Positions 23,127-52,072 of a stretch of 64,000 bases of DNA are shown here, piece by piece; the stretch's first letter is position 1, and each line of letters opens with the position of its first letter. This stretch comes from Alphaproteobacteria bacterium (GTDB lineage Bacteria > Pseudomonadota > Alphaproteobacteria > RF32 > CAG-239). Made by a program: the position numbers and the translations under genes. The DNA is taken from the NCBI GenBank assembly GCA_017543835.1, contig JAFYFJ010000020.1, positions 36,027 to 100,026 on the forward strand, in the 5' to 3' direction. A model generated the notes under the pieces. The model worked only from the letters and a program-made list of their open reading frames with translations. It searched no databases and had not been told where the DNA came from.

Positions 23127-24104
23127 ATGACGCGAATTAACGACGAAAACGAATTTTACTCGGATATTTTCATTACACCGGAGAAGATGGTGTTTGTGCC
23201 GGAAAAACGCACGGCATGCGGCTTAAAGCAAATCGAACCGGACGATTTTGATTCGTTTTACGATTTGTTGGAACGTTCGTATAAAGGAAAATCCAGTTAT
23301 TCGATTATTTATGAAGGATACTTTTTCCGTGTTGAGCGCACGGTTTCAATGTATGGCGTAATGTATTGTATGCGTAAAATGCCGAAGAAGGTGCCGGATT
23401 TGAACTCACTCGGTTATCCGCCGGCTTTGGTTAACTTTTTATCGACGCTCGGTAATGCCTGCGGACTTTTGTTGCTCGGCGGTGCAACCGGTTCCGGTAA
23501 AACAACGACAATTTCCAGCTTGCTCCGTGAATATTTGATTAGAAACGGCGGTTTTGCGTATACGATTGAAGACCCGTTTGAAATGCCGCTTGACGGTGAA
23601 TATCGGGCGGTTAACGGTTCAATCGGCGTATGCAAACAAACACAGCCGATTAACGATGACTGGGGCGCATCATTGCGCTCGGCCTTGCGTTCACGCCCGC
23701 GTTATATTATGGTCGGCGAAATCAGAACACCGGCAACCGCCAGCCAATGCTTGCGCGCCGCAACCTCAGGCCACTTGGTGCTTTCCACCATTCACGCCAA
23801 CAACGTGGCCGATGCCATCGACGCTATCGTGAAGCACGCTTCCGCCGGCGAAATGAGTGAAGAATTGGCCTTCGACTTGCTGTCACGCGGTGTTTTGGGC
23901 GTTATTCACCAACAACTCGTCGGCACGGGGCAAAAACGTCCGGTGGTGGAATATGTGTTTGCAAACCCGAATACGACAATGGGTGACCAAACGCGTAACA
24001 TTATTAAAACCGGAAAGATTAACCTTGCAACCACAATCGAAATGCAGATGACGCGTATGATGCAAGGTCGTCCGTTGTTTGACGCGGTAGATGCCAAAAA
24101 ATAA
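23127..24104 (+). CDS. PilT/DotB(TraJ)-family hexameric secretion ATPase
   Basis: 325 aa. Walker A GGATGSGKTTT, Asp box/Walker B YIMVGEIR, His box LVLSTIHANN. No N-terminal GspE-type domain, so it is PilT-sized. Confidence 0.75.
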   Translation: MTRINDENEFYSDIFITPEKMVFVPEKRTACGLKQIEPDDFDSFYDLLERSYKGKSSYSIIYEGYFFRVERTVSMYGVMYCMRKMPKKVPDLNSLGYPPALVNFLSTLGNACGLLLLGGATGSGKTTTISSLLREYLIRNGGFAYTIEDPFEMPLDGEYRAVNGSIGVCKQTQPINDDWGASLRSALRSRPRYIMVGEIRTPATASQCLRAATSGHLVLSTIHANNVADAIDAIVKHASAGEMSEELAFDLLSRGVLGVIHQQLVGTGQKRPVVEYVFANPNTTMGDQTRNIIKTGKINLATTIEMQMTRMMQGRPLFDAVDAKK

Positions 24105-24173: not shown

Positions 24174-24722
24174 TTATTGAAAAGTCCAAATCAACGTATT
24201 ATCCGTCGGTTGACACAACCCGCGTGTTGCGTAGTGCTTGATTGGCAGCGGATTATCGCCGCCCCAGTCAAACTCCGTAATAATATCATCGCTGATGATG
24301 GTAATTTTTTGCAAACCGAGCTGTTGCGATTTGGTCACCGCAAGTTCGCTCAAATTAATGCACGCCGATTTGCTCAAATTTTGCAACGCAATATCAAAGC
24401 TGTTATTGTTCGGCATAGACACATCGCCGTTTTTGCCCTGACCGATTTTTAAGGTAAAATCTTTGTTTTTGAGCAATTCGGCAACAATCAGACCGTCTGC
24501 CTCGGCTGTTTCGGTCGAAAGCTTCCAATAATTCGGCTGGTCGCGATAATAGTTGCGGATATTTTCTGCCGTTTTGAATATTTGACTATGCAAGTCTTGG
24601 TGCGGATTATGAAACAGCACATAACTCAATGTAATCACGGCGGCCAGCAGGCAAATCGCCAAAGCGACGCCGCTGAAGCTTACGGATTTGACATTTTTGA
24701 GATTTATGTGCAGTTTCTTCAT
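24174..24722 (-). CDS. putative type IVb pilin-like protein (PilS position), non-canonical leader
   Basis: The ATG at 24722 lies 1 nt after the pilR-like stop. MKKLHINLKNVKSVSFSG|VALAICLLAAVITLSYVLF is a basic leader ending in Gly followed by a hydrophobic helix. Two C-terminal Cys residues. Sits in the pilS position, but has no Glu5 and no canonical prepilin motif. Confidence 0.4.
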   Translation of the reverse strand: MKKLHINLKNVKSVSFSGVALAICLLAAVITLSYVLFHNPHQDLHSQIFKTAENIRNYYRDQPNYWKLSTETAEADGLIVAELLKNKDFTLKIGQGKNGDVSMPNNNSFDIALQNLSKSACINLSELAVTKSQQLGLQKITIISDDIITEFDWGGDNPLPIKHYATRGLCQPTDNTLIWTFQ

Positions 24723-24723
24723 C

Positions 24724-25845
24724 TTATGCCTTACCCATGTTGCTGGTAATTTGGTCTTGCATATCGAATGTGCCGAACACGGCCCAAGCAATAATACTGG
24801 CCACAAACAGCAACGCAAATGCGTTCATGACCTCGGCTCTTTGTTCAATCATATAAACCGAATCTTCAAGCCATTCGTTTGCAAGTTTATCCAAGGCCTC
24901 TTCAAAGTTATCCAATTCGGAATAAACTTTAAGGTCGGCAATAATCTGTTTATCCGGAAATTCGTGGCCGGCTTTACCCAAGGCCTGTCCCAAGTTATCA
25001 CCGTTTTTGATGTGGAACAAAGCACCGTCGATACGCTCGGTCAAATAGCGGCTGGCATCTTTTTTAAGCGATGACAACGCGAGCGAAACCGGCACGCCGC
25101 CCTTAACCAATGCGGACAAAGCCAACAACCAGGTAATACCGGTAAAAATCTTATAAAGCGACCAAGGCGGTGCGCGGTCGAATTTGACGCGGACTTTACC
25201 GGTCCAATAACCGATGGTGGAATAAATAATCAAACCGAGAACCGGAAAGAAGGCAAATGCCAACGGCCAGTTCTTTTGAATCCAAGTCGAGAGGTCAACC
25301 AAGCTTTTCGCCGTTCCGGTCCAAATCGTGTTCGGAGCGGCACTGAGCATCGGCGGCACCATGTAAACACCGATGGCGTAAACGATTAACACCGACATCA
25401 TCAACAAGAATGACGGGTAGGTAATGGCGCTGACAATCGGTCGAATCATACGGGTCGAGCCCTCGCACACCTTAATCAAGTTTAATAAAGCACTTTCCAA
25501 ATCCGCGACATCGCCCACCGAAAGCATCAAGCGCTCACGGTCCGGCGCCCAACCTTTTAAGGCCTCGGAAAACGGATGACCTTCACGCAACGAACGTCCC
25601 CACGCGCTGATGGCAATACCGATTGGCTCATTCGGATGTTGTCCTTCTTCGGTAATACTGTTATAAATCATATCAAGCGCGTTCATCAAAGAAAATCGGT
25701 TGCGCAACAACGATGCCAACTTACGATAGATTTGCAAACGTCTTTTGTTTGACATATTGCAAATAAATTTGGCATACGTCAGCATCCATTTGTTTGTTGT
25801 TCCCATGGCGCGATTAAAGGCGCTTTTCTTTTCTACTTGAGGCAT
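24724..25845 (-). CDS. pilR: type IV pilus/T2SS platform protein (GspF/PilC family; R64 PilR-like)
   Basis: 373 aa with three TM segments and two GspF-like cytoplasmic repeats. Directly downstream of the GspE-type ATPase. Confidence 0.8.
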   Translation of the reverse strand: MPQVEKKSAFNRAMGTTNKWMLTYAKFICNMSNKRRLQIYRKLASLLRNRFSLMNALDMIYNSITEEGQHPNEPIGIAISAWGRSLREGHPFSEALKGWAPDRERLMLSVGDVADLESALLNLIKVCEGSTRMIRPIVSAITYPSFLLMMSVLIVYAIGVYMVPPMLSAAPNTIWTGTAKSLVDLSTWIQKNWPLAFAFFPVLGLIIYSTIGYWTGKVRVKFDRAPPWSLYKIFTGITWLLALSALVKGGVPVSLALSSLKKDASRYLTERIDGALFHIKNGDNLGQALGKAGHEFPDKQIIADLKVYSELDNFEEALDKLANEWLEDSVYMIEQRAEVMNAFALLFVASIIAWAVFGTFDMQDQITSNMGKA

Positions 25846-25855
25846 CGTTCTTCTC

Positions 25856-27592
25856 CTAATATGTCGGACATTGGTCTAACAAGCCGCACCAACGCTCGAC
25901 CTCATCTAAGTCGATATATCCCTTGAGCATACGCTCGATAGCGGCCTCACGCAAAGGACGACCGTTAAGTTCACTTACCCAATAGTCGATGGCATCTTTG
26001 GTATCGCCGCTGAGCATCAGCCGCAAGAAGTGACCGTCCGGCAAAATAATTTCCGGCACCGACATACGGCCGATAACGCCTTTATTGCCGCAGAATTTGC
26101 AACCCGGACCGCGCACAAATGTGTTTTCGACCCCGAAATCGCCGAGAGCGATTTGCAGGCGCTTAAACGACGGGTCGGACATTCTTTCCTTTACCGGTTG
26201 CCGACAATAAGGGCAAATTTTTCTGAACAAACGTTGCGAAATCAAGCCCTTCATAATTTCCGGGTCTTCCAACATATACGGCTGAATACCCATATCGCGC
26301 AGACGGGTAATAATTGCCGGCGCCGAGTTGGCGTGCAATGTGGTCCACACGCTGTGGCCGGAAAGCGCGCCTCTGAACACCAGATTCGCGGCAGAAAGGG
26401 TTCGAATTTCACCGACCATAATCACATCAGGGTCGGAACGGAGAGCGGCCGACAATGCTTTGTTGAACGCATCGTCCTTTTCTTCTTCGGTAGAAGCGTT
26501 GGTCACCGGCATTTGCCGCGCGCCCGGAATCGGATACTCCGGCGGGTCTTCCACCGTCAAAACGTTGACTTCGCTTTGATGCTCCTGCAACAACTTAATC
26601 ATGTTGCGTTGCAGGGTTGTTGATTTACCGGAACCGGTCGGACCGGCAATAACTTTCAAGCCGGTTGCGCTGGCACGCAAACGGTAGAACAAATCTAACT
26701 CACGGTCACCTAACCCGAGCGAACGTAAATCGCCGTCGCCGTTCGGATTATCGGAGGCATAAAGCAAACGCATAACCAAATATTGCGAGCCGAATGCCAC
26801 CGGGTTAAATTGAAGACGAATAGCCAAGACGTTATGCGGCAGACGCAACTTGCCGTTGGTGCCGCGCAATGGTGTCGAACCTAATTTTTGCGCGCCTTGG
26901 AATTCGTTTTGCGCATAGTTCGCATCGGAAATATCTGCCGACGCAAAGGCCGCACGCACAAACGCTTCGCCCCATTCCTTTGAATATTCAAGTTCACGTT
27001 CCATCATACCGCTGGAACGGAAATAAACCAAGGTCGAATTGGCAACAATAACGTGAATATCCGAAACTTTATGCATTGCCGCACGGCTGATAACGCTCAA
27101 GAAGTCGATTTGCATCTGATAATCGGATGCTTCTTCGGCCGAAACCTGAATCTGTCCCTGTCCGCGTTCGGCATAAGCGTATAAGGCCACAATCTCCGAT
27201 GCGGAAACATAACGCGGGTCGGCAATGCGGATTTTACGACGACGCGCCAGAGCCGCAAAGTTCAAAACCTTACCGTCAAAGCGGTGGCTTTCGTCGACCA
27301 AATAAGTGCCGTCGGAAAACAGCGCCAACATCCGTCGTGTTTCGTCATCAACAACCAGCTCGCCGCCTTCCATCGTCAACAAACGGTTGTCGTTAGAAAA
27401 CAGAAGTTGGAACATATTGTTTTGGGCTTGTGTTAAGCCGGCATCGGAATCTTCAATATCTCCGCTTCGTGCTACTTTAAGAGCATTTTTTTCTTCGGCA
27501 GGCGGTTTTTGACCGGCAGAAACGGCAAGAGCGCCGGATGATGAATCCGGCTTTCCTGCCTCTGTTTGTGCTGTCAAATTCTCCTCAACCAT
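25856..27592 (-). CDS. pilQ: GspE/PilB-family assembly ATPase (R64 PilQ-like)
   Basis: Walker A GPTGSGKSTT, VIMVGEIR, His box VWTTLHANS, tetracysteine motif CPYC...CKFC. Confidence 0.9.
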   Translation of the reverse strand: MVEENLTAQTEAGKPDSSSGALAVSAGQKPPAEEKNALKVARSGDIEDSDAGLTQAQNNMFQLLFSNDNRLLTMEGGELVVDDETRRMLALFSDGTYLVDESHRFDGKVLNFAALARRRKIRIADPRYVSASEIVALYAYAERGQGQIQVSAEEASDYQMQIDFLSVISRAAMHKVSDIHVIVANSTLVYFRSSGMMERELEYSKEWGEAFVRAAFASADISDANYAQNEFQGAQKLGSTPLRGTNGKLRLPHNVLAIRLQFNPVAFGSQYLVMRLLYASDNPNGDGDLRSLGLGDRELDLFYRLRASATGLKVIAGPTGSGKSTTLQRNMIKLLQEHQSEVNVLTVEDPPEYPIPGARQMPVTNASTEEEKDDAFNKALSAALRSDPDVIMVGEIRTLSAANLVFRGALSGHSVWTTLHANSAPAIITRLRDMGIQPYMLEDPEIMKGLISQRLFRKICPYCRQPVKERMSDPSFKRLQIALGDFGVENTFVRGPGCKFCGNKGVIGRMSVPEIILPDGHFLRLMLSGDTKDAIDYWVSELNGRPLREAAIERMLKGYIDLDEVERWCGLLDQCPTY

Positions 27593-27613
27593 AGGCCGTT
27601 CTCTGTTTTTTCG

Positions 27614-29500
27614 CTATTTACCCGCACTCATCCCAAAAGAAAATCCGGTTTCTTTTGAATGTTTGGATGAACTCGAAGACTTACTGACCGCCGGAGCCGC
27701 TTTCGGAGCCGCTTTCGGTGCGGCTGCCGGAGCAGAGGATGTTCCCTTTGTCTGCTTATCCGACTTGTTGTCGTTTTTCGCGGATGAATTATCTCTGCGA
27801 ACCGGCTCAATCGGGTCAAAGAAATCTTCCGAGCTGTCGTTAAATGTCGCTTCCGGCTCATATTCGCGAATACCGCCGCCGGTGTAGAGATAGCTCTTGA
27901 TACCTTTGTTTTCAAACAAGATGTATGTATCCGTAATTGCCGTTACGATTTCGCCGCCTTTGAGCATCGAACCGCGGTGAACCGTAAAGGTCTTGCCGTC
28001 AATACTCACGAGTTTGGCAACAATTTCATCACCTTGACCGGTAATATCCAAAATCGCGTATTCGTGCGACAAATCCACATCAACTTGTGACGGAACACCG
28101 GTGCCGTCGAGGTTTTCGCCTTCAGCCAAACCGGCTTCACCGGCTTCGCGGCAAGCTCTGAGTTGTTCTTCGCGGTCGGCAATAACCGTTTGCAAATCAG
28201 CAATTTTATCGCGCAAAGAGTTAATGGTGATAAAGTGCTCTTGAACTGCGGCAATAACGTGCTTCTTCAAGATTTCGAGATATTTCGTAATATCGCCGAG
28301 CTTATCCTTAAAGTCGTTAATCAAAGCAACGCGTTCGTCTTCCAATTCGTGAATACGATTTTGCAGTTTGGCATTTTCATCAATCCATTTTTGATTCATG
28401 AGCAACATTTCGTTCATATAATCGTTGATGACTTTGGCTTGTCTGAGTTTTTCGAGCTCCATTTCGCGCTCTTTAAGCTTTCTTTGCTCTTCCAAAATCT
28501 TGGCCTGACGTTCCGCTTCGGCATTTTTCAGCTTTTCTTCATAAGCGCGGCGACGTTCGATTTCTTCTTGCATGGCGCGCAGACGAGCGGTACGCAAAGC
28601 AATAACTTTGTTTTTCAATTCTTCACGTTTATATTCCAAACGCAATAAGGTCGTTTGCTTTTCAATGGTCGACATCTTGTTGAACAAGCTGTTATCAACC
28701 TTTGAAAGAATCGCATTACCGAAGTTTTCGAGCGGTGATTTTGATGCATCAGCCGCCGGTGCATTTTCGTCTTTTGCCCCTTCCGGACTCAACTCATCTC
28801 CGGCACCCGCAGAGAACGGGTCAGACGGTGCAACGCCCGGTTTTGCGGCACCTGCCGGTGCATTGGTCCCTGCCGGCGCATTGGCATTAGCGTTGGCATT
28901 GGCTCCGGAGCCGGCATTTGCATTGGCATTATCCGCATTTTGCGGGGCGTTCTGAGCTTTTTCCGACGGTAATTTACCGCCCGGAACCGGTTGTGCTTTT
29001 TTCATCGATTCGGTCAATTCCGTCAGCTCATTCGGACGTTTATCTTCAAGAAACTCCAATTCTTTGTCAATGGAATTAGCCATACTGATGGCATTTGTAT
29101 CTTCCAAATCGGCATTGAGCGCCTGAAGCTCCTCTTTAACCGCGGCGATTTCCGAATCCAGTTCTTTCAAGCTTTCCATCGCTTTCTTTTCTTCGGCATC
29201 GATGGCCGCAATATTCTTTTGGGCACGTTCCTCGGCTGCAGCGACTTTATCTTGCGCTTCTTGAACAACCTTATCGATTTCGGCTTGCGAAACCTCAGAC
29301 GGTTTTTGAGCCGCTTCCGCTGTTTTTTGAGCCGCATCTTCTGCTTTTTGAGCAGTTTGAGCCGCTTTTTGAGCAGTTTCTGCAACCGGCGCTGTTGACA
29401 AAGAAGGCGCATCTGCGGCAAAACCGATTTTTGCCGGCATCGTAACGGCGAATAATAACGCTATTATGACTAAAGTTTTATTTTTGAGATTACAATTCAT
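27614..29500 (-). CDS. PilP-like pilus biogenesis protein with a large coiled-coil and low-complexity expansion
   Basis: Signal peptide, ~350 aa of heptad-like E/K/A/Q sequence, and an (NA)n/PAG tract. The C-terminal segment YAILDITGQGDEIVAKLVSIDGKTFTVHRGSMLKGGEIVTAITDTYILF resembles the R64-type PilP / GspC-HR beta domain. Sits in the pilP position. Confidence 0.5.
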   Translation of the reverse strand: MNCNLKNKTLVIIALLFAVTMPAKIGFAADAPSLSTAPVAETAQKAAQTAQKAEDAAQKTAEAAQKPSEVSQAEIDKVVQEAQDKVAAAEERAQKNIAAIDAEEKKAMESLKELDSEIAAVKEELQALNADLEDTNAISMANSIDKELEFLEDKRPNELTELTESMKKAQPVPGGKLPSEKAQNAPQNADNANANAGSGANANANANAPAGTNAPAGAAKPGVAPSDPFSAGAGDELSPEGAKDENAPAADASKSPLENFGNAILSKVDNSLFNKMSTIEKQTTLLRLEYKREELKNKVIALRTARLRAMQEEIERRRAYEEKLKNAEAERQAKILEEQRKLKEREMELEKLRQAKVINDYMNEMLLMNQKWIDENAKLQNRIHELEDERVALINDFKDKLGDITKYLEILKKHVIAAVQEHFITINSLRDKIADLQTVIADREEQLRACREAGEAGLAEGENLDGTGVPSQVDVDLSHEYAILDITGQGDEIVAKLVSIDGKTFTVHRGSMLKGGEIVTAITDTYILFENKGIKSYLYTGGGIREYEPEATFNDSSEDFFDPIEPVRRDNSSAKNDNKSDKQTKGTSSAPAAAPKAAPKAAPAVSKSSSSSKHSKETGFSFGMSAGK

Positions 29501-30737
29501 AGATTTCTCCTTTGAAAGTCCAATTTGCAGAATTTATGTCGTATGTAACAGTGTGAACCGTTAATCCTGAAAATTTCATTAACAAATCCATCCACGTCAA
29601 CGGGTCGTTGTTTGACGTGATGGAAAATTCCATCAAATCATATTGTGTTCCGCGCGGCGATACCCATTTTTTCGGTGTCAACGCAATGTTGATGCTCAAG
29701 GCCTGATTAATATCGTTGATGGTATTAATCAAATCGCTTTGTGTATATTCCGGCGGAGAGTTAAGCGTTTGCGGCTCCTCAACCGGCAACGATGCCATTA
29801 AGGTATTGCCGTCGGCGCTTAAAACGCGTGATTTAAATTCAACGCCCGAAACATCGAGTGCCTGTTCCATAAAGGTCAGACGACCGATTTCACGGCGCCA
29901 CGATGTGACCAAACCGGTGCTCTTGCAGGTTACGCCTTCCAAACGCCAACCCGGAGCAACCAATTCAACCACTTTTTGCGTGGCTTTATAGCAGTTGCGC
30001 ATAACATCAATCGGATTAGCGATTGATTCCCACGGCTTTGGCTCCGGCGGGAGCTCTTCCTGCTGAACCTGTTCAATCGGGGCAATAATCGGTGTTTCCG
30101 GTGCCGAGAAAAACAGGTCTTTTAAGGTAGAATACGCAAACCATAAAATAATTGCAAAGCAGGCGATGATTACCAAAAGCATAATGGAGTCATTGCTGGC
30201 ATCAATTTTATCGAGTTTGACTTGCAAGCCCTTTTCGAGCAGCGGCCCCAACTCATCCGGCCGCGTGTCTTCAATTCCCCATTCCGGCGGCGCAAAAATG
30301 GCGTCCCAATCCGGCACGGTTAACATTGAAATAAACTGATTCTTGGCATCACGCTCGCTGATAAACAATGTATCGCCGTCAGACAAGATAACATCGTTTC
30401 TGAAGCAGATATACCACCAACCCGTATCGACTTTGAACACGCCCAAAAACGATGTAACCGTTCCCAAGCCCGTAATCAAAGCCACGGCGGCCGACGGAAG
30501 ACCTTTGGTAAAGCCCTGCGTTGAGGCGGCAAGACCAAACTGCGGCGACTTGCCTTTGCGCGTCAGATACAGGTCTGCACCTTCGAGGATATTCTCGGCG
30601 GCTTCTTTGACCTCCGGCAACGGCTTGTCTTCGTTCATCAGCGGCTGCCAGAACAAGCTTGCGGCATAAGTCGTCGAGCCGGCCGTAAAGGTCGATTTCC
30701 AAGCTTTTTCTTCTGATTGCGTTTCCTCAATTTCCAC
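29490..30737 (-). CDS. type IVb pilus protein, PilO(R64)/PilO2-like
   Basis: 415 aa with one central TM (IMLLVIIACFAIILWFAY). GTG start with an AGGAG RBS. The call rests mainly on position between the secretin and the pilP-like gene, and on size. Confidence 0.5.
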   Translation of the reverse strand: MEIEETQSEEKAWKSTFTAGSTTYAASLFWQPLMNEDKPLPEVKEAAENILEGADLYLTRKGKSPQFGLAASTQGFTKGLPSAAVALITGLGTVTSFLGVFKVDTGWWYICFRNDVILSDGDTLFISERDAKNQFISMLTVPDWDAIFAPPEWGIEDTRPDELGPLLEKGLQVKLDKIDASNDSIMLLVIIACFAIILWFAYSTLKDLFFSAPETPIIAPIEQVQQEELPPEPKPWESIANPIDVMRNCYKATQKVVELVAPGWRLEGVTCKSTGLVTSWRREIGRLTFMEQALDVSGVEFKSRVLSADGNTLMASLPVEEPQTLNSPPEYTQSDLINTINDINQALSINIALTPKKWVSPRGTQYDLMEFSITSNNDPLTWMDLLMKFSGLTVHTVTYDINSANWTFKGEIYEL

Positions 30738-30756
30738 TGGTTTTCTCCTAAAAGAA

Positions 30757-32367
30757 TTAGTCTTTCATTCTGGATTCCGGATCAAGCGGTGATTCCAAAA
30801 CAACCGGCGTCAGCATAATCACCAAAACGGTGCGTGCACGAGATGCGGAAGATGAGCCGCCGAGCAACATATTATCCGGTGTTCCGGTACCGATTTTCTC
30901 AGTTGCGTCTTTGACTTGTTCATAACCTGCCAATACCAAGGTTTCGCCCGAGCGCATCGCCAATTCTTGCGTAAAGCCGCGTCCTTCGATAATCGGGTTT
31001 TGAACAAAGCCGTCTTTTGCATCTTCTTCGGTACTGCTTCCCAACAAGATTTTTTCCAAATCAACCAAATTTGACAAGGTCAGGTTGAAATAAACCATCA
31101 AACGTCCGTGGTCCAAAACTCTCGGCAATACGGCCATCATGAAACCTGTATTGATTTCTTCGGTTTCAACCGAAATTTCGGTGCTTTCATTGTCGTTTCC
31201 GGAATTTTCAACGGTTTGTTCCTTAACATAAGATTGTTTACGCATAACCTTAATCGGTGCGGCTTTGTTGTTCATGGTGGTAACGGTGCCGCTGGTTATG
31301 ACTCGAGCATTACCCTCTTTAGATAAACCTTCAAGGGTGGCATCAATATTGACTTTGCCTTTAATGATACCCATACCGAGCGAACTGGTGGAGTTTTCGA
31401 TTGCGCCGCCTTGGTGCCAAGCAGTTGCCTTTAAGTGGTTGCTGGCCGCAATTGTGGCACCCAAATCAAAGTTAAAGCCGTCGTCATTGTTAATATCAAC
31501 TTGCAACACCTTAACGCTGATGGCAACCTGTTTGCTCATACGGCTGTTCATTTCCGTAATGTATTTACCGATGCGCTTAATCACGGTCGGCGTATCCGTT
31601 ACGTTGATGGTGCCGCTTCCCGGATTCATCGAAATCGAACCGTCTCTGGTTTTCATATTATCGAGAGTAGCGCTGACTTCATCCCAAACACTTGAAGCCG
31701 TGTATCCGTTTTGCGCCGTAACCGAATCTTCGCCTTCGCCGCCGGAATTTGAAATACTGGCTTGAATATCCGGTGTGGTCGGCAAGGTGTAAAGAATAAA
31801 GGTTTTGGTGATAAACTTATAGAAATAAATCTCGTTTTTCTCATATTTCCACCAAATACCGAAACGATTGGAAACTTCGTCAAGCAGGCCGCTCAACGGA
31901 CCTTTGTAGTTAACAATCATCTTGGTCGAATCCGTCCATTGTTGACCGAGCGAATCAATATCCGGCTGGTTGTTATCGGCGGTGCTGATGGAAGTGCGGT
32001 CATCGTCTTCCAATTCCGGCGCATAACGAACCGTCAAACCCGTAATTTTGCTAATCATATTGCCGATTTCAAACAATGTAATCGGACGGTTACTGATAAG
32101 CGTAATACCGTCTTTGGCTTCCAAATAAGTCGGAACGGCTTCGCCTTCGTATTCAACGGTAGACGAATCACCGAGCCAAATATCGTTTTTGACCCGAATC
32201 AAATCATCCGGAATCTGCTCAGCCGGTGCAACCGCTTTTTGACGCAATTCGACGACATCTTTGGTGGTTTGCTCCAGTTCGCGGTCAAGTTCCGGCGAAA
32301 CGCTGCATGCGGCAGCAATTCCCAAAATGCCGAAAACAGTTAATTTAAACAAATTAGTCATACGCAT
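30757..32367 (-). CDS. pilN: lipoprotein secretin, R64 PilN family
   Basis: Lipobox GIAAAC. C-terminal secretin domain (NTGFMMAVLPRVLDHGRLMVYFNLTLSNL...GETLVLAGY...RTVLVIMLTPVVLE). The ATG at 32367 follows a GGAGGA. Confidence 0.85.
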   Translation of the reverse strand: MRMTNLFKLTVFGILGIAAACSVSPELDRELEQTTKDVVELRQKAVAPAEQIPDDLIRVKNDIWLGDSSTVEYEGEAVPTYLEAKDGITLISNRPITLFEIGNMISKITGLTVRYAPELEDDDRTSISTADNNQPDIDSLGQQWTDSTKMIVNYKGPLSGLLDEVSNRFGIWWKYEKNEIYFYKFITKTFILYTLPTTPDIQASISNSGGEGEDSVTAQNGYTASSVWDEVSATLDNMKTRDGSISMNPGSGTINVTDTPTVIKRIGKYITEMNSRMSKQVAISVKVLQVDINNDDGFNFDLGATIAASNHLKATAWHQGGAIENSTSSLGMGIIKGKVNIDATLEGLSKEGNARVITSGTVTTMNNKAAPIKVMRKQSYVKEQTVENSGNDNESTEISVETEEINTGFMMAVLPRVLDHGRLMVYFNLTLSNLVDLEKILLGSSTEEDAKDGFVQNPIIEGRGFTQELAMRSGETLVLAGYEQVKDATEKIGTGTPDNMLLGGSSSASRARTVLVIMLTPVVLESPLDPESRMKD

Positions 32368-33070
32368 TTTCGTCCTCCATTGTTTCAACTACCAAAACGC
32401 GGTTACCTTTATAAAATGTGCCTATCGGCGCCGGTCTGGCACGACCGAATGCTCTGATTAAGGCAGATGCAACATCGGCAAAACTGCCTCTGAACATTGC
32501 GCCGGCATTGAGTGTGTAGTTGCGGTTGGTTTTCCAAATCAAGCGCCAACCGGCTTCTTCACTCCATTGTGTCAGCAATTCTTTCAAGCTCTGGCCTTCT
32601 TCCGCCAGCCAATCTCTGTTTTGAACATCGGCATCTTCGGCGGCAACTTCTTGCGATTGAGCGCTTGTGTCAATCATATACGATTGTTGTGCCATTGTTT
32701 CGATTGTCGGCTGATATTCAACCACTTCGTCAACAATACCCGGAACGGTGGTGGCGGAAATATTGTTTCCGGCCGCGGCTTGAGTAATACGATGATCACG
32801 CGGCGAACGTTCGCCATATGCGCGGAAGTCCGAGTTTGTGCGCGTGTAATTGACAGGTGCCTGGTTAACGCATTCGCTGTAACCGGCGGAGTTTTCCGTG
32901 CAAACGTCCGTAAATTCCTGCTCGCTTTCGCAAATACCGTCTTGGCAGTTTGCTTCTCGTTCCAAGTAGCTTGTCGGTTCATTGACGCAACCGGTTGTGC
33001 CGAGAACACAGCAAACCAAGCCGGTAATTGCCAATTTATGCATTATTATCTTTTCAAAATAGTGTTTCAT
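32354..33070 (-). CDS. pilL: TcpQ-domain lipoprotein, R64 PilL-like
   Basis: Lipobox LGTTGC. The C-terminal segment WLAEEGQSLKELLTQWSEEAGWRLIWKTNRNYTLNAGAMFRGSFADVASALIRAF fits the toxin-coregulated-pilus Q / PilL domain. Confidence 0.7.
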   Translation of the reverse strand: MKHYFEKIIMHKLAITGLVCCVLGTTGCVNEPTSYLEREANCQDGICESEQEFTDVCTENSAGYSECVNQAPVNYTRTNSDFRAYGERSPRDHRITQAAAGNNISATTVPGIVDEVVEYQPTIETMAQQSYMIDTSAQSQEVAAEDADVQNRDWLAEEGQSLKELLTQWSEEAGWRLIWKTNRNYTLNAGAMFRGSFADVASALIRAFGRARPAPIGTFYKGNRVLVVETMEDENAYD

Positions 33071-33121: not shown

Positions 33122-34876
33122 TTACCATGGGTTATCTCCCCACTTAACGACGGCTTTTGCCATATCTTCTTCAGAAGCGTATCTCACATTCCTAATAATA
33201 AAAGAGTTTGGCTCGCGGTTGGTAAAAATTATATTAATTTTATGATAATCCACACCTCTGTCTGCCAAAAGCTTATAAAATAATTTCAAACGTTTTTGCT
33301 GAATAGCTTGCGGCGCGGACTGCGAAGCCCTGATTTCGACAACAACCGTGTCGTTTTTGACGGTGTTGTCGGCAAAAGCACGCAGCCATTCAAGCGTTTG
33401 CCCCGAAATTTCGGCCTTGTTCGGCTGAAATGTGATTTTTAACTCACTCGGAGCAATATTCTTTTCTTCTTCTTGTGGGCCCAACAGTTTTTGAAAGATT
33501 GAACCGCCGGACTTTTTACCTTCCGCCGTTTCCTGCTCATCATCCTTAGAGCCCGATTTATCCGATGAGCCCTTTGTCAGATTGCTGGCTTTTGTTTTAA
33601 CGCCGGAAAACCACGCCGTAATACTGTCGGTCAAACTCTTAGAGCTTGAATCGTCGGCATTGGATTCGTTTTGCTCATCAAAATCTTTTTCGGTGTCATC
33701 TGCCGGAATTTGTGCCGGAAGCGGTCGAATTTCGATTTTCGGTGCATCACCGTCGCTACCTGCCGGAGCTTGTGTGCCGGAGTTGTTGCCCGAAGTTCCC
33801 GAAGTGCCCGAGGCATCATTTTTTCCGCCGGTTGCACTTCCGGTGTTGCCGTCTTTATCCGCCGGCGGCAATTTATTTTGTGAGCGCAATTCTTCTTCCA
33901 ATTGCAGATTTTCTTTTGAGCTCGAAAATTGCGGCGTCAGATTTTCTTCTTGCATAATTTCGTCCGGAATCGGAATCAAAATGTTTTGTTGCGGGCGATA
34001 TGCCACCTGAGTTTCTTGCGCCGGCAGAGCAACATCGGCTGTCTCCGGCTGACTTTTAACACTCAGAGAATTTTTCGGCGCGTGCTTGTTTGCAACTTCG
34101 GCAACTTCCCACGGGTCATCATCGGATGTTTGCGGCGAAGCGACATTTGCGGCCAATTCGGAAGATTGAGCCGTCGATGTTTCCGTCTCCGAAACGGTTT
34201 CTTCTTCGTTTTCTTCCGCACGCTCGCTGAGCGGCTCGGTCACATCGGCCTGATTTTCGGTGCCCAAATTATAAACGCTGACATCGTGCGAGGCAAGCGC
34301 GATTTTTCCGTTGTCGGTTGCATCGGAAACGGTTACGGTGCCGCCCTCTATATTATAATTGTGCTTGAGAGGGATGGTGAACATCGGCGCCTGTGCGGCA
34401 TCGGCGATTTGCATATCATCATCGTTATCGTCGTCGCTGCTGTTATTGCTTTCGGCCTCGGTTTCCGGAGTTGTTTCCGGCAATTCGGAGGCATCGGCGA
34501 TTTCCAAATCATCACCGTCCGCAAGCGCAATATCTTCATTTTCGGTGTCGCTCGGGGTTTTATTTTCGGATACAATGCCGTCATCGTCATCTTCTTCCGG
34601 CGTATAAAGCACTTCATCGCTGTTTTCGGTTGTTTCGATATCTTCCGTCATCAGCGGATTGTTCGGTTGTGAAACCTCCTTAAACTTATTATAAAGAGGA
34701 TCTTCTTCTTCGTTGACGGCAAAGAGCTCGATGTTTTTGGCTTTGATTGACGCGGCGAGTTGCTCATCCGGTTGGTCCGGTAACGTGAGCAACAAATAGG
34801 CCTTCGCTGCCACAAATACAGCGACTAAAGACAACAGGAAGCTCCCTGCAAAATATTTAATACCCGGTTTCGGCAT
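33122..34876 (-). CDS. acidic membrane-anchored protein with a degenerate OmpA/MotB-like C-terminal domain
   Basis: The ATG at 34876 is preferred over TTG at 34915. N-terminal TM (FAGSFLLSLVAVFVAAKAYLLL), ~450 aa rich in D/E/S/T, and a C-terminal ~90 aa with an OmpA_C-like spacing pattern that lacks the PG-binding D/R residues. Confidence 0.55.
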   Translation of the reverse strand: MPKPGIKYFAGSFLLSLVAVFVAAKAYLLLTLPDQPDEQLAASIKAKNIELFAVNEEEDPLYNKFKEVSQPNNPLMTEDIETTENSDEVLYTPEEDDDDGIVSENKTPSDTENEDIALADGDDLEIADASELPETTPETEAESNNSSDDDNDDDMQIADAAQAPMFTIPLKHNYNIEGGTVTVSDATDNGKIALASHDVSVYNLGTENQADVTEPLSERAEENEEETVSETETSTAQSSELAANVASPQTSDDDPWEVAEVANKHAPKNSLSVKSQPETADVALPAQETQVAYRPQQNILIPIPDEIMQEENLTPQFSSSKENLQLEEELRSQNKLPPADKDGNTGSATGGKNDASGTSGTSGNNSGTQAPAGSDGDAPKIEIRPLPAQIPADDTEKDFDEQNESNADDSSSKSLTDSITAWFSGVKTKASNLTKGSSDKSGSKDDEQETAEGKKSGGSIFQKLLGPQEEEKNIAPSELKITFQPNKAEISGQTLEWLRAFADNTVKNDTVVVEIRASQSAPQAIQQKRLKLFYKLLADRGVDYHKINIIFTNREPNSFIIRNVRYASEEDMAKAVVKWGDNPW

Positions 34877-35165
34877 CTCTGTAAATCCTATTGAATCAAC
34901 GAATAACCGCGACAAAATGGCGACAGTTATCCCACTCTTTTGTTTGAAGATACAACGAAGTGTGTTAAAATACAGTTAATGAGAAAAATAAAGTTAATAA
35001 GTCGCAAAAATAAGTGTTAAAATCCGATAAAAATATGCTACGATACATACAAAGTAAATTTTTACATTTTATTTACTTTTTGTCGTTATTATTAAAATGT
35101 ATTTTTGTAATATGCACATATATACATATGGCAAAGCCCGAAAAACACGGATGCAGACGCTTGTC

Positions 35166-35244: not shown

Positions 35245-35577
35245 ATGAAACTTTTAAAGAATAATATTTGCACCATTTTGACATTGGTTCTGTTTTTCAC
35301 TCTTGTCATGACGGGCAATGCAGAAGCTGACGTTTTCGGTACGGCTCAATCTAAATTGTCGAACCTGTTCAAGCAATCAAAGTTCGTTATCTTCTTAATC
35401 GGCGGTTTCGGTTTGATCGCTTTGGCGTTCCAAGCCATCTTCGGTAAGTTGAAATGGGCATGGTTTGCCGCTTTGGCATTCGGTTTGGCAGTTGTGGCTG
35501 CGGCCGGTGGTGTTGTCGGTTATGCTGCAAACCAAGACAATATTGTTTCAAGCAACTTCAGCGATTCTTTGAAATAA
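35245..35577 (+). CDS. virB2: VirB2/TrbC-type T4SS pilin, paralog 1
   Basis: 110 aa: signal peptide plus two hydrophobic helices separated by a short basic loop (FGKLKW), the VirB2 architecture. AGGAGA RBS. Confidence 0.75.
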   Translation: MKLLKNNICTILTLVLFFTLVMTGNAEADVFGTAQSKLSNLFKQSKFVIFLIGGFGLIALAFQAIFGKLKWAWFAALAFGLAVVAAAGGVVGYAANQDNIVSSNFSDSLK

Positions 35578-35620
35578 TAAGAATAAGCGCAAAATTGCTT
35601 GCGCAAAATGATTACTTTGA

Positions 35621-35647
35621 GGAGGGAAAGCATAACGCTTTCTCTCC
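35621..35647 (+). other. 11-bp stem-loop between virB2 paralogs 1 and 2
   Basis: ggagggaaagc-ataac-gctttctctcc (one G-U pair). A second 6-bp hairpin lies at 35587-35604. Confidence 0.5.
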
Positions 35648-35671
35648 TTAGAGAAGATTAAGGAGGTAATT

Positions 35672-36007
35672 ATGCTGTGGATTAAAATAAAGAACTTTTT
35701 GTGGAATAACCGCTACACCATCTGCTTGGCACTTTCTTTATTTTTATATACAGCAGATGCCTACGCCACTTTTCAAGAATTTATAGATGCCGGTGATCAA
35801 ATATTTGCAGGCCTGAAGAAAATTATTTGGCCGGCGGCCACCATCGGCATTTCTTCGGTGTGTATTGCCGGTATGTTCGGCAGTTTTAACTGGAAATGGT
35901 TTATCGCAATTTTACTCGGCGTTTTCATTATTGCTACCGCCGAGAGCTTCAGTTCGCTTGTAGGTTCCGGTCCGAGCCAACAAACGGCAATGAGCGGAAA
36001 TGAATAG
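35672..36007 (+). CDS. virB2: VirB2/TrbC-type T4SS pilin, paralog 2
   Basis: 111 aa with the same leader plus two-helix architecture (FGSFNWKW loop). AAGGAGG RBS. Confidence 0.7.
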   Translation: MLWIKIKNFLWNNRYTICLALSLFLYTADAYATFQEFIDAGDQIFAGLKKIIWPAATIGISSVCIAGMFGSFNWKWFIAILLGVFIIATAESFSSLVGSGPSQQTAMSGNE

Positions 36008-36019
36008 GAGATTATACGG

Positions 36020-37044: not shown

Positions 37045-37331
37045 GAGAAGAAATCTTAAAAGCGGTTGCGCAACCTCCGAAAGTTTTGTGGGCGCCGATG
37101 GTGCCGTCCGTGATTAACCTGGGCATTCAATTTCCGGTGATGTTTATGGGTATCGGTATGGCGGGTATGAACCCGTTGTTTTTCGTGACGATGATTATTA
37201 TGTCGCATATTGCGTTGGTGTTTGCCGGTTTGAAAGAGCCGCACTTGTCGACAATGTTGCAAGCGTATGGTCAGACTTATCATCAAACTACTAATTTATA
37301 TTCGGAAGCGGGGAATAAATTTGAGCCATGA
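37041..37331 (+). CDS. virB3: T4SS protein VirB3
   Basis: ~96 aa. The LWAPMVPSVINLGIQF...FFVTMIIMSHIALVFAG hairpin is typical of VirB3. ATGA overlaps with both neighbours. Confidence 0.8.
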   Translation: MREEILKAVAQPPKVLWAPMVPSVINLGIQFPVMFMGIGMAGMNPLFFVTMIIMSHIALVFAGLKEPHLSTMLQAYGQTYHQTTNLYSEAGNKFEP

Positions 37332-52063: not shown

Positions 52064-52072
52064 GATATAACA

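What the first reader, a model, noticed from the sequence alone, without database searches (positions are those of the whole stretch)
24174..33070. R64/ICE-type type IVb pilus module (pilL-N-O-P-Q-R-S order) divergently paired with a VirB-type T4SS; incomplete gene set
Seen in the sequence: the minus-strand operon encodes a TcpQ-domain lipoprotein (PilL-like), a lipoprotein secretin (PilN-like), a PilO-sized bitopic protein, a PilP-like protein, a GspE ATPase (PilQ-like), a GspF platform protein (PilR-like) and a pilin-like protein. This is exactly the gene order of the IncI1 R64 thin-pilus operon. The genes are tightly packed or overlapping.

Not seen in the window: a prepilin peptidase (PilU), a PilV-type tip adhesin or shufflon, or a PilT-type transglycosylase.

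Established knowledge: this pil module normally accompanies I-type (Dot/Icm-like) conjugation systems on IncI plasmids, or GI-type T4SSs on PAPI-1/ICEclc-like islands. There it stabilises mating pairs.

Inference: coupling it to a IVA/rvh-like VirB locus across a shared 330-bp control region is an unusual chimera. It suggests co-regulated pilus-mediated attachment plus T4SS delivery.
Basis: partly seen in the sequence, partly recalled or inferred. Interest (0 to 1): 0.65.

Follow-up and report, generated by a model that had tools for sequence, protein, structure and literature searches.

The report
Chromosomal BFP-like type IVb pilus machine
The region encodes the assembly machine for a bundle-forming-pilus-like type IVb pilus that is a conserved chromosomal trait of uncultured gut and rumen Alphaproteobacteria and usually sits back-to-back with a VirB-type secretion system, although its fibre subunit and the peptidase that processes it are not in the window.

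Summary
Window 24174-33070 (minus strand) encodes, tightly packed, a TcpQ-domain lipoprotein, a PilN/BfpB-family lipoprotein secretin, a PilO/BfpC-like bitopic protein, a PilP-domain protein, a GspE-class ATPase, a GspF platform and a pilin-fold protein.

Four corrections:
- The operon starts one gene earlier, at 33122-34876. This gene encodes a membrane-anchored protein with an OmpA-like C-terminal domain.
- A PilT/BfpF-like ATPase (23127-24104, + strand) belongs to the system and was missed.
- The "pilin" lacks the prepilin signature (Gly-1, Glu+5). Canonical prepilins lie next to the operon in some relatives, but none is in this window.
- The proteins are closer to EPEC BFP and a Bosea megaplasmid cluster than to R64.

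The locus is chromosomal, flanked by housekeeping genes, with no tRNA, integrase or relaxase. The operon is conserved in all 80 related genome loci examined. In 54 of 59 informative loci a VirB operon lies divergently upstream.

A conserved TTAA-N7-TTAAC (CtrA-type) box sits about 100 bp upstream of the operon. It stays with the pil operon where virB is not adjacent, so a shared control region is not supported.

Verdict: a new variant of a known kind, of moderate interest.

The parts
34964..34979 (-). Conserved TTAA-N7-TTAAC box (TTAACTGTATTTTAAC), a CtrA-type full-site motif, about 100 bp upstream of the first pil gene
   Evidence: It is the only such box in the window. A box at 96-124 bp from the orf597 start is present in 39 of 41 related loci, including three loci without an adjacent virB. 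Shuffled intergenic regions give 2.4 of 31 loci.
33122..34876 (-). First gene of the operon (the ORF is open up to 34915; the likely start is Met14). It has an N-terminal membrane anchor, a long acidic low-complexity linker and an OmpA/Pal/MotB-like C-terminal domain.
   Evidence: No Pfam hit. One TM segment at residues 19-37. Conserved in 77 of 80 loci. The AF2 model of the C-terminal 127 aa has pLDDT 80. Foldseek top hits are OprF, Pal and MotB peptidoglycan-binding domains, E 3e-5, TM about 0.55.
32354..33070 (-). PilL/BfpG/TcpQ-like lipoprotein, the partner of the secretin
   Evidence: PF10671 TcpQ, E 1.2e-16. 39% identity to BfpG and 36% to the Bosea TcpQ protein. The N-terminus is lipoprotein-like (...LGTTGC), read from the sequence.
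30757..32367 (-). PilN/BfpB-family lipoprotein secretin (the ORF is listed from 32388; the 536-aa form starts at 32367)
   Evidence: TIGR02520 257.9 bits and PF00263. The only PDB hit is BfpB, 6e-45. 25-29% identity over 95% of its length to plasmid PilN. Cys28 is invariant.
29490..30737 (-). PilO/BfpC-like bitopic inner-membrane protein
   Evidence: PF06864, E 4.8e-20. The N-terminal domain hits the BfpC structure 3VHJ, E 1e-3. TM segment at 184-202.
27614..29500 (-). Extended PilP: signal peptide, about 430 aa of coiled-coil and low-complexity sequence, then a PilP-family domain (residues about 439-524)
   Evidence: TIGR03021, E 0.009 (whole protein) and 3e-4 (domain alone). 27 of 28 clade homologues hit it, best 1.5e-11.
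25856..27592 (-). BfpD/PilQ-like extension ATPase (GspE class, with a CxxC...CxxC motif)
   Evidence: T2SSE, E 1.3e-63. Best PDB hit is BfpD, 2.1e-89, against GspE at 5e-49. 38% identity to Bosea, 35% to BfpD, 29% to R64 PilQ.
24724..25845 (-). BfpE/PilR-like GspF-family platform protein
   Evidence: T2SSF, E 3.2e-24. 35% identity to Bosea, 32% to BfpE, 26% to R64 PilR.
24174..24722 (-). Pilin-fold protein (bundlin/PilS-like globular domain with a conserved Cys pair). It has a basic leader and a single TM but no conserved Gly-1 or Glu+5, so it is a degenerate, probably unprocessed pilin paralogue.
   Evidence: Searches give the alignment, the bundlin 1ZWT hit at 8.7e-8, and PilS/Bundlin Pfam hits in 15 of 26 members. 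In the all-protein search, 102 of 103 family representatives lack the class III signature.
23127..24104 (+). PilT/BfpF-like short ATPase, the putative retraction motor, convergent with the operon
   Evidence: TIGR01420 pilT_fam 124 bits. Best PDB hit is PilT, 3.6e-24, aligned through the IRNLIRE-like motif. 35% identity to BfpF and 34% to the Bosea short ATPase. A true orthologue sits next to the operon in 45 loci; in 11 of them it is co-directional, behind the pilin genes.
35245..36580 (+). Three tandem VirB2/TrbC pilin genes (35245-35577, 35672-36007, 36020-36580), divergent from the pil operon
   Evidence: PF04956, E 1e-7, 5e-8 and 5e-5.
37014..39757 (+). VirB3 (37014-37331) and VirB4 (37328-39757)
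   Evidence: PF05101 is weak. PF03135 and TIGR00929 give 377.7 bits. VirB4 has 84% median identity across 56 loci.
50975..64000 (+). Distal T4SS genes: two VirB8 copies (50975-51730, 52073-52843), VirB9 (52840-54420), a 1669-aa beta-flower-repeat protein (54443-59452), VirB10 with a roughly 1100-aa beta-flower N-terminal extension (59455-63693), and the start of VirB11 (63704 onward)
   Evidence: In a relative, VirB11 is followed by DUF3137 and then engB-yidC-rnpA-rpmH-gyrB, with no VirD4 or relaxase.

Best explanation
Window 23127-34979 encodes the assembly machine of a bundle-forming-pilus-like type IVb pilus. It has become a vertically inherited, chromosomal core trait of an uncultured gut/rumen alphaproteobacterial lineage.

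Inferred roles, by homology:
- The lipoprotein secretin (PilN/BfpB type), with its TcpQ/BfpG-like partner, forms the outer-membrane pore.
- An inner-membrane-anchored protein with an OmpA-like domain ties the machine to the cell wall.
- The PilO/BfpC-like protein and an unusually long PilP protein bridge the inner-membrane platform to the secretin.
- The BfpD-like ATPase, acting on the GspF-type platform, polymerises pilins.
- The PilT/BfpF-like ATPase retracts the fibre.

The operon's own pilin-fold protein has lost the prepilin cleavage and assembly signature. It is therefore more likely a membrane-anchored accessory than the fibre subunit. The fibre is predicted to be built from canonical prepilins (leader ...QSG|RSMVEM...) and processed by an A24 peptidase, both encoded elsewhere in this genome.

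Transcription is probably governed by a CtrA-type response regulator acting through the conserved box at about -100.

The usual back-to-back partner is a VirB-type T4SS with three VirB2 genes, giant repeat proteins and no coupling protein or relaxase in the cluster. This suggests both machines serve contact with other cells or surfaces rather than plasmid mating.

What is shown: gene identities, synteny, conservation and the motif. What is inferred: pilus production, retraction, CtrA control and any functional link to the T4SS.
For: Gene identities:
- Pfam and NCBIfam assignments.
- PDB matches to BfpD 2e-89, BfpB 6e-45, BfpC 1e-3, bundlin 8.7e-8 and PilT 3.6e-24.
- OmpA-like fold of the first gene's C-terminal domain.
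- Collinearity with, and higher similarity to, bfpG-B-C-U-D-E-F and the Bosea cluster than to R64.

Chromosomal, vertical inheritance:
- Housekeeping genes on the left flank (TyrRS, MurJ, L17, UvrA, QueH), and on the far side of the T4SS in a relative (yidC-rnpA-rpmH-gyrB).
- No tRNA genes and no compositional break.
- 213 species-level genomes encode a relative of the secretin. The operon order is kept in all 80 loci fetched. Median identities are 55-76% for PilL, PilN, PilO, PilQ and PilR, against 66% for the neighbouring MsbA-like ABC transporter.

Short ATPase: it lies next to the operon in 45 loci, and in 11 of them within the same transcriptional direction, behind the pilin genes.

Pilins:
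- Canonical prepilins with G|RSMVE lie beside or near the operon in relatives, up to three tandem copies.
- The PilS-like family lacks that signature in 102 of 103 representatives.

Regulatory box: present in 39 of 41 loci at 96-124 bp.

T4SS partner: virB is divergent and adjacent in 54 of 59 loci. T4CP-less T4SSs with multiple VirB2 copies are interpreted as adhesion devices in Bartonella Trw (PMC12857230, section 20).
Against: - No fibre subunit and no prepilin peptidase is present in 64 kb, or within 10 kb of the secretin in any relative for the peptidase. Whether this organism can make a pilus at all is therefore untested.
- The secretin and PilP scores of the window's own proteins are below the NCBIfam equivalog cut-offs.
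- The OmpA-like domain is identified by fold only (TM about 0.55), and peptidoglycan binding is not established.
- The CtrA assignment rests on a motif consensus recalled from Caulobacter. No CtrA gene or binding data were examined.
- All relatives are metagenome-assembled genomes, and there are no expression or phenotype data.
- Adjacency to virB is broken in 5 of 59 genomes, so a functional link is not obligatory at the level of gene order.
Confidence: 0.65

Rival explanations
1. Mating-pair stabiliser of a conjugative element, as for the R64 thin pilus or the PAPI-1 pilus. On this view the pil and virB genes are an integrated, perhaps still mobile, conjugative element.
For: PilN-family clusters on plasmids are mostly on conjugative replicons: 2509 of 3009 plasmid hits. 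A plasmid with a PilN-type cluster directly followed by VirB3 and a VirB4-like gene exists.
Against: No relaxase, coupling protein, integrase, tRNA target or repeats were found in the 64-kb window or beyond VirB11 in a relative. The GC content is the same as the flanks. The locus sits at the same chromosomal place, next to the MsbA-like ABC transporter and UvrA, in many species. It is conserved at housekeeping-like rates. No PilV/shufflon adhesin is present.
Confidence: 0.08
2. The pil genes no longer build a free pilus. They have been co-opted as part of the neighbouring T4SS. For example, the secretin and motor might export or display the giant beta-flower proteins, or a short periplasmic pseudopilus might be built around the degenerate pilin-like protein.
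For: The operon's only pilin-fold gene lacks Gly-1 and Glu+5 in the whole family. There is no peptidase near any locus. Adjacency to virB is conserved in 54 of 59 loci. No VirB6, VirB7 or VirB5 is recognisable in the T4SS cluster.
Against: Canonical prepilin genes, sometimes in tandem arrays, lie directly behind the operon in many relatives. A PilT-like retraction ATPase is retained. The operon and its promoter box persist where virB is not adjacent. VirB9 and VirB10 already provide an outer-membrane core.
Confidence: 0.15
3. A secretion or DNA-uptake device: a T2SS-like exporter, or a competence pilus working with a ComB-like T4SS.
For: The ATPase and platform belong to the GspE and GspF superfamilies. 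The VirB10 C-terminal domain scores higher on the ComB10 model (117 bits) than on the VirB10 model (88 bits). T4bP systems such as TCP are known, from general knowledge, to secrete a cognate protein.
Against: The secretin scores 258 bits on the PilN-family model against 43 bits on GspD. PilO, PilP and TcpQ are T4bP-specific parts. No GspC, L, M or pseudopilin set is present. VirB11 is present, unlike in ComB (the ComB composition is from memory).
Confidence: 0.07
4. A decaying remnant of a pilus locus with no present function.
For: The pilin, peptidase, transglycosylase and minor pilins are missing from the window.
Against: All nine genes are intact here and across 80 species-level genomes, at 45-76% median identity for seven of them (about 40% for the two low-complexity proteins). 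Cys pairs and catalytic motifs are invariant, and the promoter box is conserved.
Confidence: 0.03

Closest known systems
EPEC bundle-forming pilus operon (bfpA-G-B-C-U-D-E-F-P-H-I-J-K-L, plasmid pMAR2)
   Same: The core bfpG-B-C-U-D-E is collinear with the window's TcpQ protein, secretin, PilO-like, PilP-like, ATPase and platform. A BfpF-like retraction ATPase is present. The best or only PDB matches are BfpD, BfpB, BfpC and bundlin. Identities are 24-39%.
   Different: - No bundlin-type prepilin, BfpP peptidase, BfpH transglycosylase, minor pilins or BfpL in the window.
- The retraction ATPase is inverted.
- The PilP-position protein is 628 aa, against 164 aa for BfpU.
- There is an extra OmpA-like first gene and an extra degenerate pilin-fold gene.
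- The locus is chromosomal, sits in Alphaproteobacteria, and lies beside a T4SS.
Type IVb cluster on Bosea sp. RAC05 megaplasmid pBSY19_1 (and a similar hit on the Methylorubrum extorquens AM1 megaplasmid)
   Same: It has the highest sequence similarity found in annotated records: ATPase 38%, platform 35%, TcpQ protein 36%, PilO2 26%, short ATPase 34%. It has the same order, including a short second ATPase after the platform.
   Different: It is plasmid-borne, carries a PilV-type adhesin gene, has no VirB genes within 14 kb, and has no OmpA-like first gene. It has not been studied experimentally, as far as the searches show.
IncI1/R64 thin pilus (pilI-V) and the ICE/PAPI-1 pil2 cluster
   Same: The same family of parts is present (PilL, N, O, P, Q, R). 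The NCBIfam PilN-family model is the best hit for the secretin.
   Different: - Lower similarity: 26-30%, with no detectable PilO or PilP hit by BLAST.
- R64 has PilM between PilL and PilN, plus the PilT transglycosylase, PilU peptidase and PilV/shufflon, and it has no PilT-like ATPase.
- R64 is linked to MPF_I conjugation genes on a plasmid.
- The PAPI-1 gene order is recalled from memory and was not tested.
Burkholderia contaminans plasmid pBCO-2: type IVb cluster followed by VirB-type genes
   Same: A PilN-type cluster (two TcpQ proteins, secretin, PilP, PilO2, ATPase, platform, pilin, short ATPase) lies directly next to a transglycosylase, VirB3 and a VirB4-like gene. This is a precedent for T4bP plus VirB adjacency.
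   Different: The two gene sets are co-directional rather than divergent. The cluster is plasmid-borne and has a canonical pilin and PilV. Identity to the window is only 24-31%.
Bartonella Trw and other T4SSs that lack a coupling protein
   Same: The T4SS cluster has several tandem VirB2 copies and no VirD4. Trw is interpreted as an adhesion device (PMC12857230, section 20).
   Different: No VirB5 or VirB6 is recognisable. VirB10 and its neighbour carry huge beta-flower repeat regions. A VirD4 elsewhere in the genome is not excluded.

Membership tests
Type IVb pilus assembly system (PilN/BfpB-secretin class) | Lipoprotein secretin of the PilN/BfpB family | tested here: met
   TIGR02520 at 257.9 bits is by far the best model, though below the 287.65-bit equivalog cut-off. 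The only PDB hit is BfpB, 6e-45. The lipobox Cys is invariant.
Type IVb pilus assembly system (PilN/BfpB-secretin class) | TcpQ/BfpG/PilL-type protein encoded just upstream of the secretin | tested here: met
   PF10671, E 1.2e-16. 39% identity to BfpG.
Type IVb pilus assembly system (PilN/BfpB-secretin class) | PilO/BfpC-type bitopic protein and a PilP-family protein | tested here: met
   PF06864, E 4.8e-20, and BfpC structure hit at 1e-3. The PilP domain is below cut-off in the window protein (E 3e-4) but found in 27 of 28 homologues, best 1.5e-11.
Type IVb pilus assembly system (PilN/BfpB-secretin class) | GspE-class extension ATPase and GspF-class platform | tested here: met
   T2SSE 1.3e-63, T2SSF 3.2e-24 and BfpD 2.1e-89.
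Type IVb pilus assembly system (PilN/BfpB-secretin class) | Type IVb prepilin with a class III signal (Gly-1, Glu+5) in the locus | tested here: not met
   The operon's pilin-fold protein lacks both residues, and so does its whole family. tblastn with a relative's canonical prepilin finds nothing in the window even at E 10.
Type IVb pilus assembly system (PilN/BfpB-secretin class) | A24 prepilin peptidase | tested here: not met
   Absent from all window ORFs of 80 aa or more by Pfam. Absent by tblastn from the window and from 80 loci. The rest of the genome cannot be searched with these tools.
R64/IncI1 thin pilus or ICE (PAPI-1-type) pil cluster | PilM, PilT transglycosylase, PilU peptidase and PilV adhesin (with shufflon in R64) | tested here: not met
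   No tblastn hit for any of them in the window or in 80 loci.
R64/IncI1 thin pilus or ICE (PAPI-1-type) pil cluster | Carried on a conjugative plasmid or ICE with I-type or GI-type transfer genes | tested here: not met
   Housekeeping flanks, no tRNA, integrase, relaxase or T4CP, and a VirB-type neighbour.
R64/IncI1 thin pilus or ICE (PAPI-1-type) pil cluster | Closest sequence relatives are R64-type proteins | tested here: not met
   PilQ scores 156 bits to R64, against 299 to BfpD and 325 to Bosea. PilR scores 121 against 207 and 226.
EPEC-type bundle-forming pilus operon | The full bfp gene set, including bfpA, bfpP, bfpH, bfpI-K and bfpL | tested here: not met
   Only the G-B-C-U-D-E-F equivalents are present.
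Rickettsiales rvh-type T4SS (the neighbouring system) | Expanded family of large polytopic VirB6-like proteins, duplicated VirB4/8/9, and virD4 after virB11 | tested here: not met
   The six ORFs between VirB4 and VirB8 have at most one TM segment. Only VirB2 (three copies) and VirB8 (two copies) are duplicated. In a relative, VirB11 is followed by DUF3137 and housekeeping genes. The rvh criteria are recalled from the literature.
CtrA regulon (Alphaproteobacteria) | Full CtrA site TTAA-N7-TTAAC in the promoter region | tested here: met
   Box at 34964-34979. It is conserved in 39 of 41 loci at a fixed distance. The consensus is recalled from Caulobacter work.
CtrA regulon (Alphaproteobacteria) | CtrA binds the site and controls transcription | not testable with these tools
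   There is no genome-wide gene inventory and no binding or expression data.

The most novel reading that the evidence does not exclude
The type IVb pilus machine and the coupling-protein-less VirB system, with its giant beta-flower VirB10 and neighbouring repeat protein, may form one conserved contact apparatus. This would be a hallmark of a widespread but uncultured gut/rumen alphaproteobacterial lineage. On this reading, a retractile pilus captures a partner cell (bacterium, protist or host epithelium) and pulls it onto the T4SS. The lineage-specific signal-anchored pilin-fold protein and the 600-aa PilP would be adaptations that couple the two machines.
Probability: 0.2. Interest if true: 0.75.

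Novelty: new variant of a known kind. Interest (0 to 1): 0.5.

Why it matters
Type IVb pili are known mainly as plasmid- or island-borne virulence or mating factors of enteric Gammaproteobacteria. Here the same machine appears as a fixed chromosomal trait in a large, uncultured group of gut and rumen Alphaproteobacteria found in humans, ruminants, horses, rabbits and chickens. It has its own additions:
- an OmpA-like anchor;
- a greatly extended PilP;
- a small, distinct family of pilin-fold proteins that have lost the prepilin signature;
- a conserved CtrA-type promoter box.

It is usually paired with an unusual VirB system. This gives concrete, testable leads to how these poorly known gut bacteria attach to or interact with other cells. 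The degenerate pilin family is also a natural experiment on what a pilin fold does when it cannot be processed or polymerised.

Tried and rejected
- Exact-sequence look-ups of the window's VirB10, with two different start codons, found no record. Downstream context was taken instead from a 68%-identical relative.
- The single-sequence model of the pilin-like protein was too poor to use (pLDDT 48), so its fold rests on profile matches.
- Profile searches of the PilP domain and the orf597 domain against PDB sequences gave nothing significant.
- The sigma-70 promoter and terminator scan of 22900-35400 was not above chance.
- There were no tRNA genes and no Rfam families in the window.
- A sigma-54 reading of the conserved CTGGAA...TTGCA block upstream of virB2 was rejected by my own reading of the alignment, because the GG-GC spacing is 7 nt, not 10.
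- VirB6 identity for the ORFs at 39892-50931 was rejected: at most one TM segment each and no Pfam or NCBIfam hit.
- T2SS and Tad assignments were rejected on HMM scores.
- Six literature searches found no paper describing this locus or lineage feature.
- The GTDB placement of the clade (order RF32 / family CAG-239) is from memory only. The one paper checked had the relevant text truncated. NCBI files one member under Rhodospirillales.

Full report
**What is at the coordinates**

The minus strand between 24174 and 34915 carries eight tightly spaced ORFs. Junctions range from an overlap of up to 35 nt between ORFs as listed (about 14 nt with the revised PilN start) to a 51-nt gap.

- 32354-33070: TcpQ domain, PF10671, E 1.2e-16.
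- 30757-32388: a secretin whose best model is the PilN-family type IVB secretin TIGR02520, at 257.9 bits. The next models are MshL at 98 bits and GspD at 43 bits. The score is just under the 287.65-bit equivalog cut-off.
- 29490-30737: PAP_PilO, E 4.8e-20.
- 27614-29500: weak PilP-family match.
- 25856-27592: T2SSE, E 1.3e-63.
- 24724-25845: T2SSF, E 3.2e-24.
- 24174-24818: sub-threshold PilS domain.

**Corrections to the anatomy**

1. The operon begins one gene earlier.
   - The ORF at 33122-34915 (likely start at 34876) is present in 77 of 80 related loci.
   - It has an N-terminal membrane anchor, a long acidic low-complexity linker and a conserved 127-aa C-terminal domain.
   - An AlphaFold2 model of that domain, built with database homologues, reached pLDDT 80.
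   - By Foldseek it matches OmpA, Pal and MotB peptidoglycan-binding domains (E 3e-5, TM about 0.55).
2. The "PilP-like protein" is 628 aa.
   - Only residues about 439-524 are PilP-like.
   - The domain alone scores E 3e-4 against TIGR03021, and 27 of 28 clade homologues hit it, best 1.5e-11.
   - The first roughly 430 residues are signal peptide, coiled coil and low-complexity sequence.
3. A 325-aa ATPase at 23127-24104, convergent with the operon, was overlooked.
   - It scores best on the PilT/PilU family (124 bits).
   - Its best solved relative is PilT (3.6e-24), with the alignment running through the IRNLIRE-like motif.
   - It is 35% identical to the BFP retraction ATPase BfpF.
   - True orthologues sit beside the operon in 45 related loci. 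In 11 of them they lie in the same direction, directly behind the pilin genes.
4. The pilin-like gene really starts at 24722, one base after the PilR stop.
   - Its globular domain is pilin-like. It has two invariant cysteines, the family profile matches the bundlin structure 1ZWT at 8.7e-8, and 15 of 26 members hit Pfam PilS or Bundlin.
   - The N-terminus is a basic leader plus one hydrophobic helix, without a conserved Gly-1 or Glu+5.
   - By contrast, IncI1 PilS reads ...G|WAILE and another plasmid pilin reads ...G|FTLIE.
   - An exhaustive search of 1.84 billion representative proteins found only 103 relatives, and 102 of them lack the class III signature.
   - This is a small, distinct family of signal-anchored pilin-fold proteins, not a normal major pilin.

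**What is missing**

No A24 peptidase, PilV, PilM, lytic transglycosylase or canonical prepilin is present in the window. The peptidase is also absent within 10 kb of the secretin in all 80 relatives.

Canonical prepilins do exist in the clade. Genes with the leader ...QSG|RSMVEMLGVLAIIG... lie directly behind the pilin-like gene in many of the more distant relatives, in up to three tandem copies. They lie elsewhere near the operon in two closer relatives. The fibre subunit of this organism is thus predicted to be encoded outside the window. That prediction cannot be tested here.

**Which type IVb system it resembles**

BLAST against reference clusters gives these scores.

| Window protein | Bosea pBSY19_1 | EPEC BFP | IncI1 (R64 type) |
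|---|---|---|---|
| ATPase (PilQ-like) | 38% / 325 bits | BfpD, 35% / 299 bits | PilQ, 29% / 156 bits |
| Platform (PilR-like) | 35% / 226 bits | BfpE, 32% / 207 bits | PilR, 26% / 121 bits |
| TcpQ protein, PilO-like protein, short ATPase | detectable match | detectable match | no or weaker match |

- The best or only PDB sequence matches are BfpD (2.1e-89, against GspE at 5e-49), BfpB (6e-45), BfpC (1e-3) and bundlin.
- The BFP order bfpG-B-C-U-D-E-F is collinear with the window.
- R64 has pilM between pilL and pilN and has no PilT-like ATPase.

The module is better called BFP-like than R64/ICE-type. All of these systems share one core layout.

**Genomic setting and distribution**

- The left flank encodes TyrRS, AnmK, MurJ, ribosomal protein L17, UvrA, QueH, an LD-carboxypeptidase and an MsbA-like ABC transporter.
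- The window has no tRNA genes, no Rfam hits and no compositional break.
- The right side is a VirB-type T4SS: three VirB2 copies, VirB3, VirB4, six unassigned non-polytopic ORFs, two VirB8 copies, VirB9, a 1669-aa beta-flower-repeat protein, a 1412-aa VirB10 with a beta-flower N-terminal extension, and the start of VirB11 at 63704.
- In a relative with a 68%-identical VirB10, VirB11 is followed by a DUF3137 gene and then engB, yidC, rnpA, rpmH and gyrB.
- The whole pil-virB block is therefore chromosomal, with no relaxase, coupling protein or integrase in it.

Secretin homologues at 49-87% identity come from metagenome-assembled Alphaproteobacteria. The sources are rumen, human, horse, rabbit and chicken gut. 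In all, 213 species-level genomes encode a relative, and 80 loci were fetched.

- The operon order is kept in all of them.
- Median identities are 55-76% for PilL, PilN, PilO, PilQ and PilR, and 84% for VirB4. The neighbouring ABC transporter is at 66%.
- VirB4 lies divergently upstream in 54 of the 59 loci that have enough upstream sequence.
- In the five exceptions the pil operon is intact but has other neighbours, for example L17.

**The intergenic region**

Simple promoter and terminator scans were at chance level. Comparison across relatives revealed a TTAA-N7-TTAAC box (window 34964-34979, minus strand).

- It is present in 30 of 31 alignable pil-virB intergenic regions. Shuffled sequences give 2.4 of 31.
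- It lies 96-124 bp upstream of the first pil gene in 39 of 41 loci.
- Three of those loci have no virB genes upstream.
- It is the only such box in the 64-kb window. The window count alone is at chance expectation, so the evidence is the conserved position.
- The motif equals the Caulobacter CtrA full-site consensus, as I recall it.

The virB2 side has its own conserved AT-rich block 35-75 bp from the start codon, and a 16-mer that occurs in either orientation in different subclades. The region therefore looks like two separate promoter regions rather than one shared control element. Co-regulation is neither shown nor excluded.

**Is the pairing unprecedented?**

Most plasmid PilN-type clusters are on conjugative replicons. 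The IncI1 and pADAP-like examples examined are typed MPF_I. The closest Salmonella cluster and the BFP plasmid are on MPF_F plasmids.

Burkholderia contaminans pBCO-2 carries a PilN-type cluster, with a short second ATPase, followed directly by a transglycosylase, VirB3 and a VirB4-like gene. Adjacency of a type IVb pilus cluster and a VirB-type system is therefore rare in what I saw, but not unique.

What is new here is the divergent arrangement as a stable chromosomal feature of a whole lineage, without mobility genes. Six literature searches found no description of it.

**Most likely mechanism**

By homology, the proposed roles are as follows.
- The secretin and its TcpQ-like partner form the outer-membrane pore.
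- The OmpA-like protein anchors the machine to the wall.
- The PilO/BfpC-like and PilP proteins bridge to the inner-membrane platform.
- The BfpD-like ATPase extends the fibre, and the PilT/BfpF-like ATPase retracts it.
- The fibre is made of canonical prepilins encoded elsewhere.
- The degenerate pilin-fold protein probably stays in the membrane as an accessory part.

A T4SS with multiple VirB2 copies and no coupling protein in the cluster recalls Bartonella Trw, which is interpreted as an adhesion device (PMC12857230, section 20). Both machines probably serve cell or surface contact.

All functional statements are inference. No expression, structural or phenotypic data exist for these organisms.

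**Rivals**

- A conjugation accessory on a mobile element is disfavoured by the context (confidence about 0.08).
- Co-option of the pil genes into the T4SS is not excluded. The absence of a pilin and peptidase from the locus argues for it. The canonical pilins in relatives and the persistence of the operon without virB argue against it (about 0.15).
- A secretion or DNA-uptake role is possible but unsupported (about 0.07).
- A decaying remnant is contradicted by the conservation (about 0.03).

**Verdict**

This is a new variant of a known kind: a BFP-like type IVb pilus machine fixed in the chromosome of gut Alphaproteobacteria, with lineage-specific parts and a conserved T4SS neighbour. Interest is moderate, at 0.5.

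Noticed in passing
window 54443-59452 and 59455-62700: Two giant proteins in the T4SS operon carry many beta-flower repeats (PF21785/PF21784), DUF3659 and RHS-like repeats. One is a 1669-aa protein between VirB9 and VirB10. The other is a roughly 1100-aa N-terminal extension of VirB10 itself. The extended VirB10 is conserved at 41-83% identity across the clade.
   Followed up: partly
window 39892-50931: Six A-rich ORFs (311, 218, 576, 492, 441 and 1619 aa) lie between VirB4 and VirB8. Each has at most one N-terminal hydrophobic segment and no significant family match. No polytopic VirB6-like gene, and no recognisable VirB5 or VirB7, is present in the cluster.
   Followed up: partly
window 35169-35187; related loci upstream of virB2: A conserved 16-mer, TGTAACAAAAAATTCA (in the window: TGTAACAAAAATGTAACAC), occurs upstream of virB2. 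It appears in opposite orientations and at different distances in different subclades, which suggests an invertible or orientation-independent regulator site.
   Followed up: no
L069:17935-20163, L073:12116-14201, L078, L080, L057, L070: In some relatives, two or three tandem, diverged copies of the canonical prepilin gene follow the operon. Their N-termini are nearly identical and their C-terminal halves vary. This pattern would fit pilin variation.
   Followed up: no
L013, L015, L021, L029, L042 (record titles): Several genome records that carry this alphaproteobacterial locus are titled Bacteroidaceae, [Ruminococcus] gnavus, Lachnospiraceae or Eubacteriales. They are probably mislabelled or contaminated bins.
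   Followed up: no
L014:intergenic region upstream of orf597 (1174 bp): This locus has a second copy of the TTAA-N7-TTAAC box with the same flanks, 896 bp upstream, in an enlarged intergenic region. This suggests a local duplication or insertion.
   Followed up: no
window 28700-29000 and 27640-27760 (within the PilP gene): The extended PilP protein contains simple repeats (NANANA..., APAGTNAPAG, AAPKAAPKAAP). Its N-terminal half is poorly conserved between species, whereas the C-terminal PilP domain is conserved.
   Followed up: no
P0258 (homologue of the first operon gene): One homologue is recorded on a 1.86-Mb contig. This hints that genomes of this lineage may be small, about 2 Mb or less. 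The place actually fetched was a frameshift-ridden long-read contig with the same synteny.
   Followed up: partly
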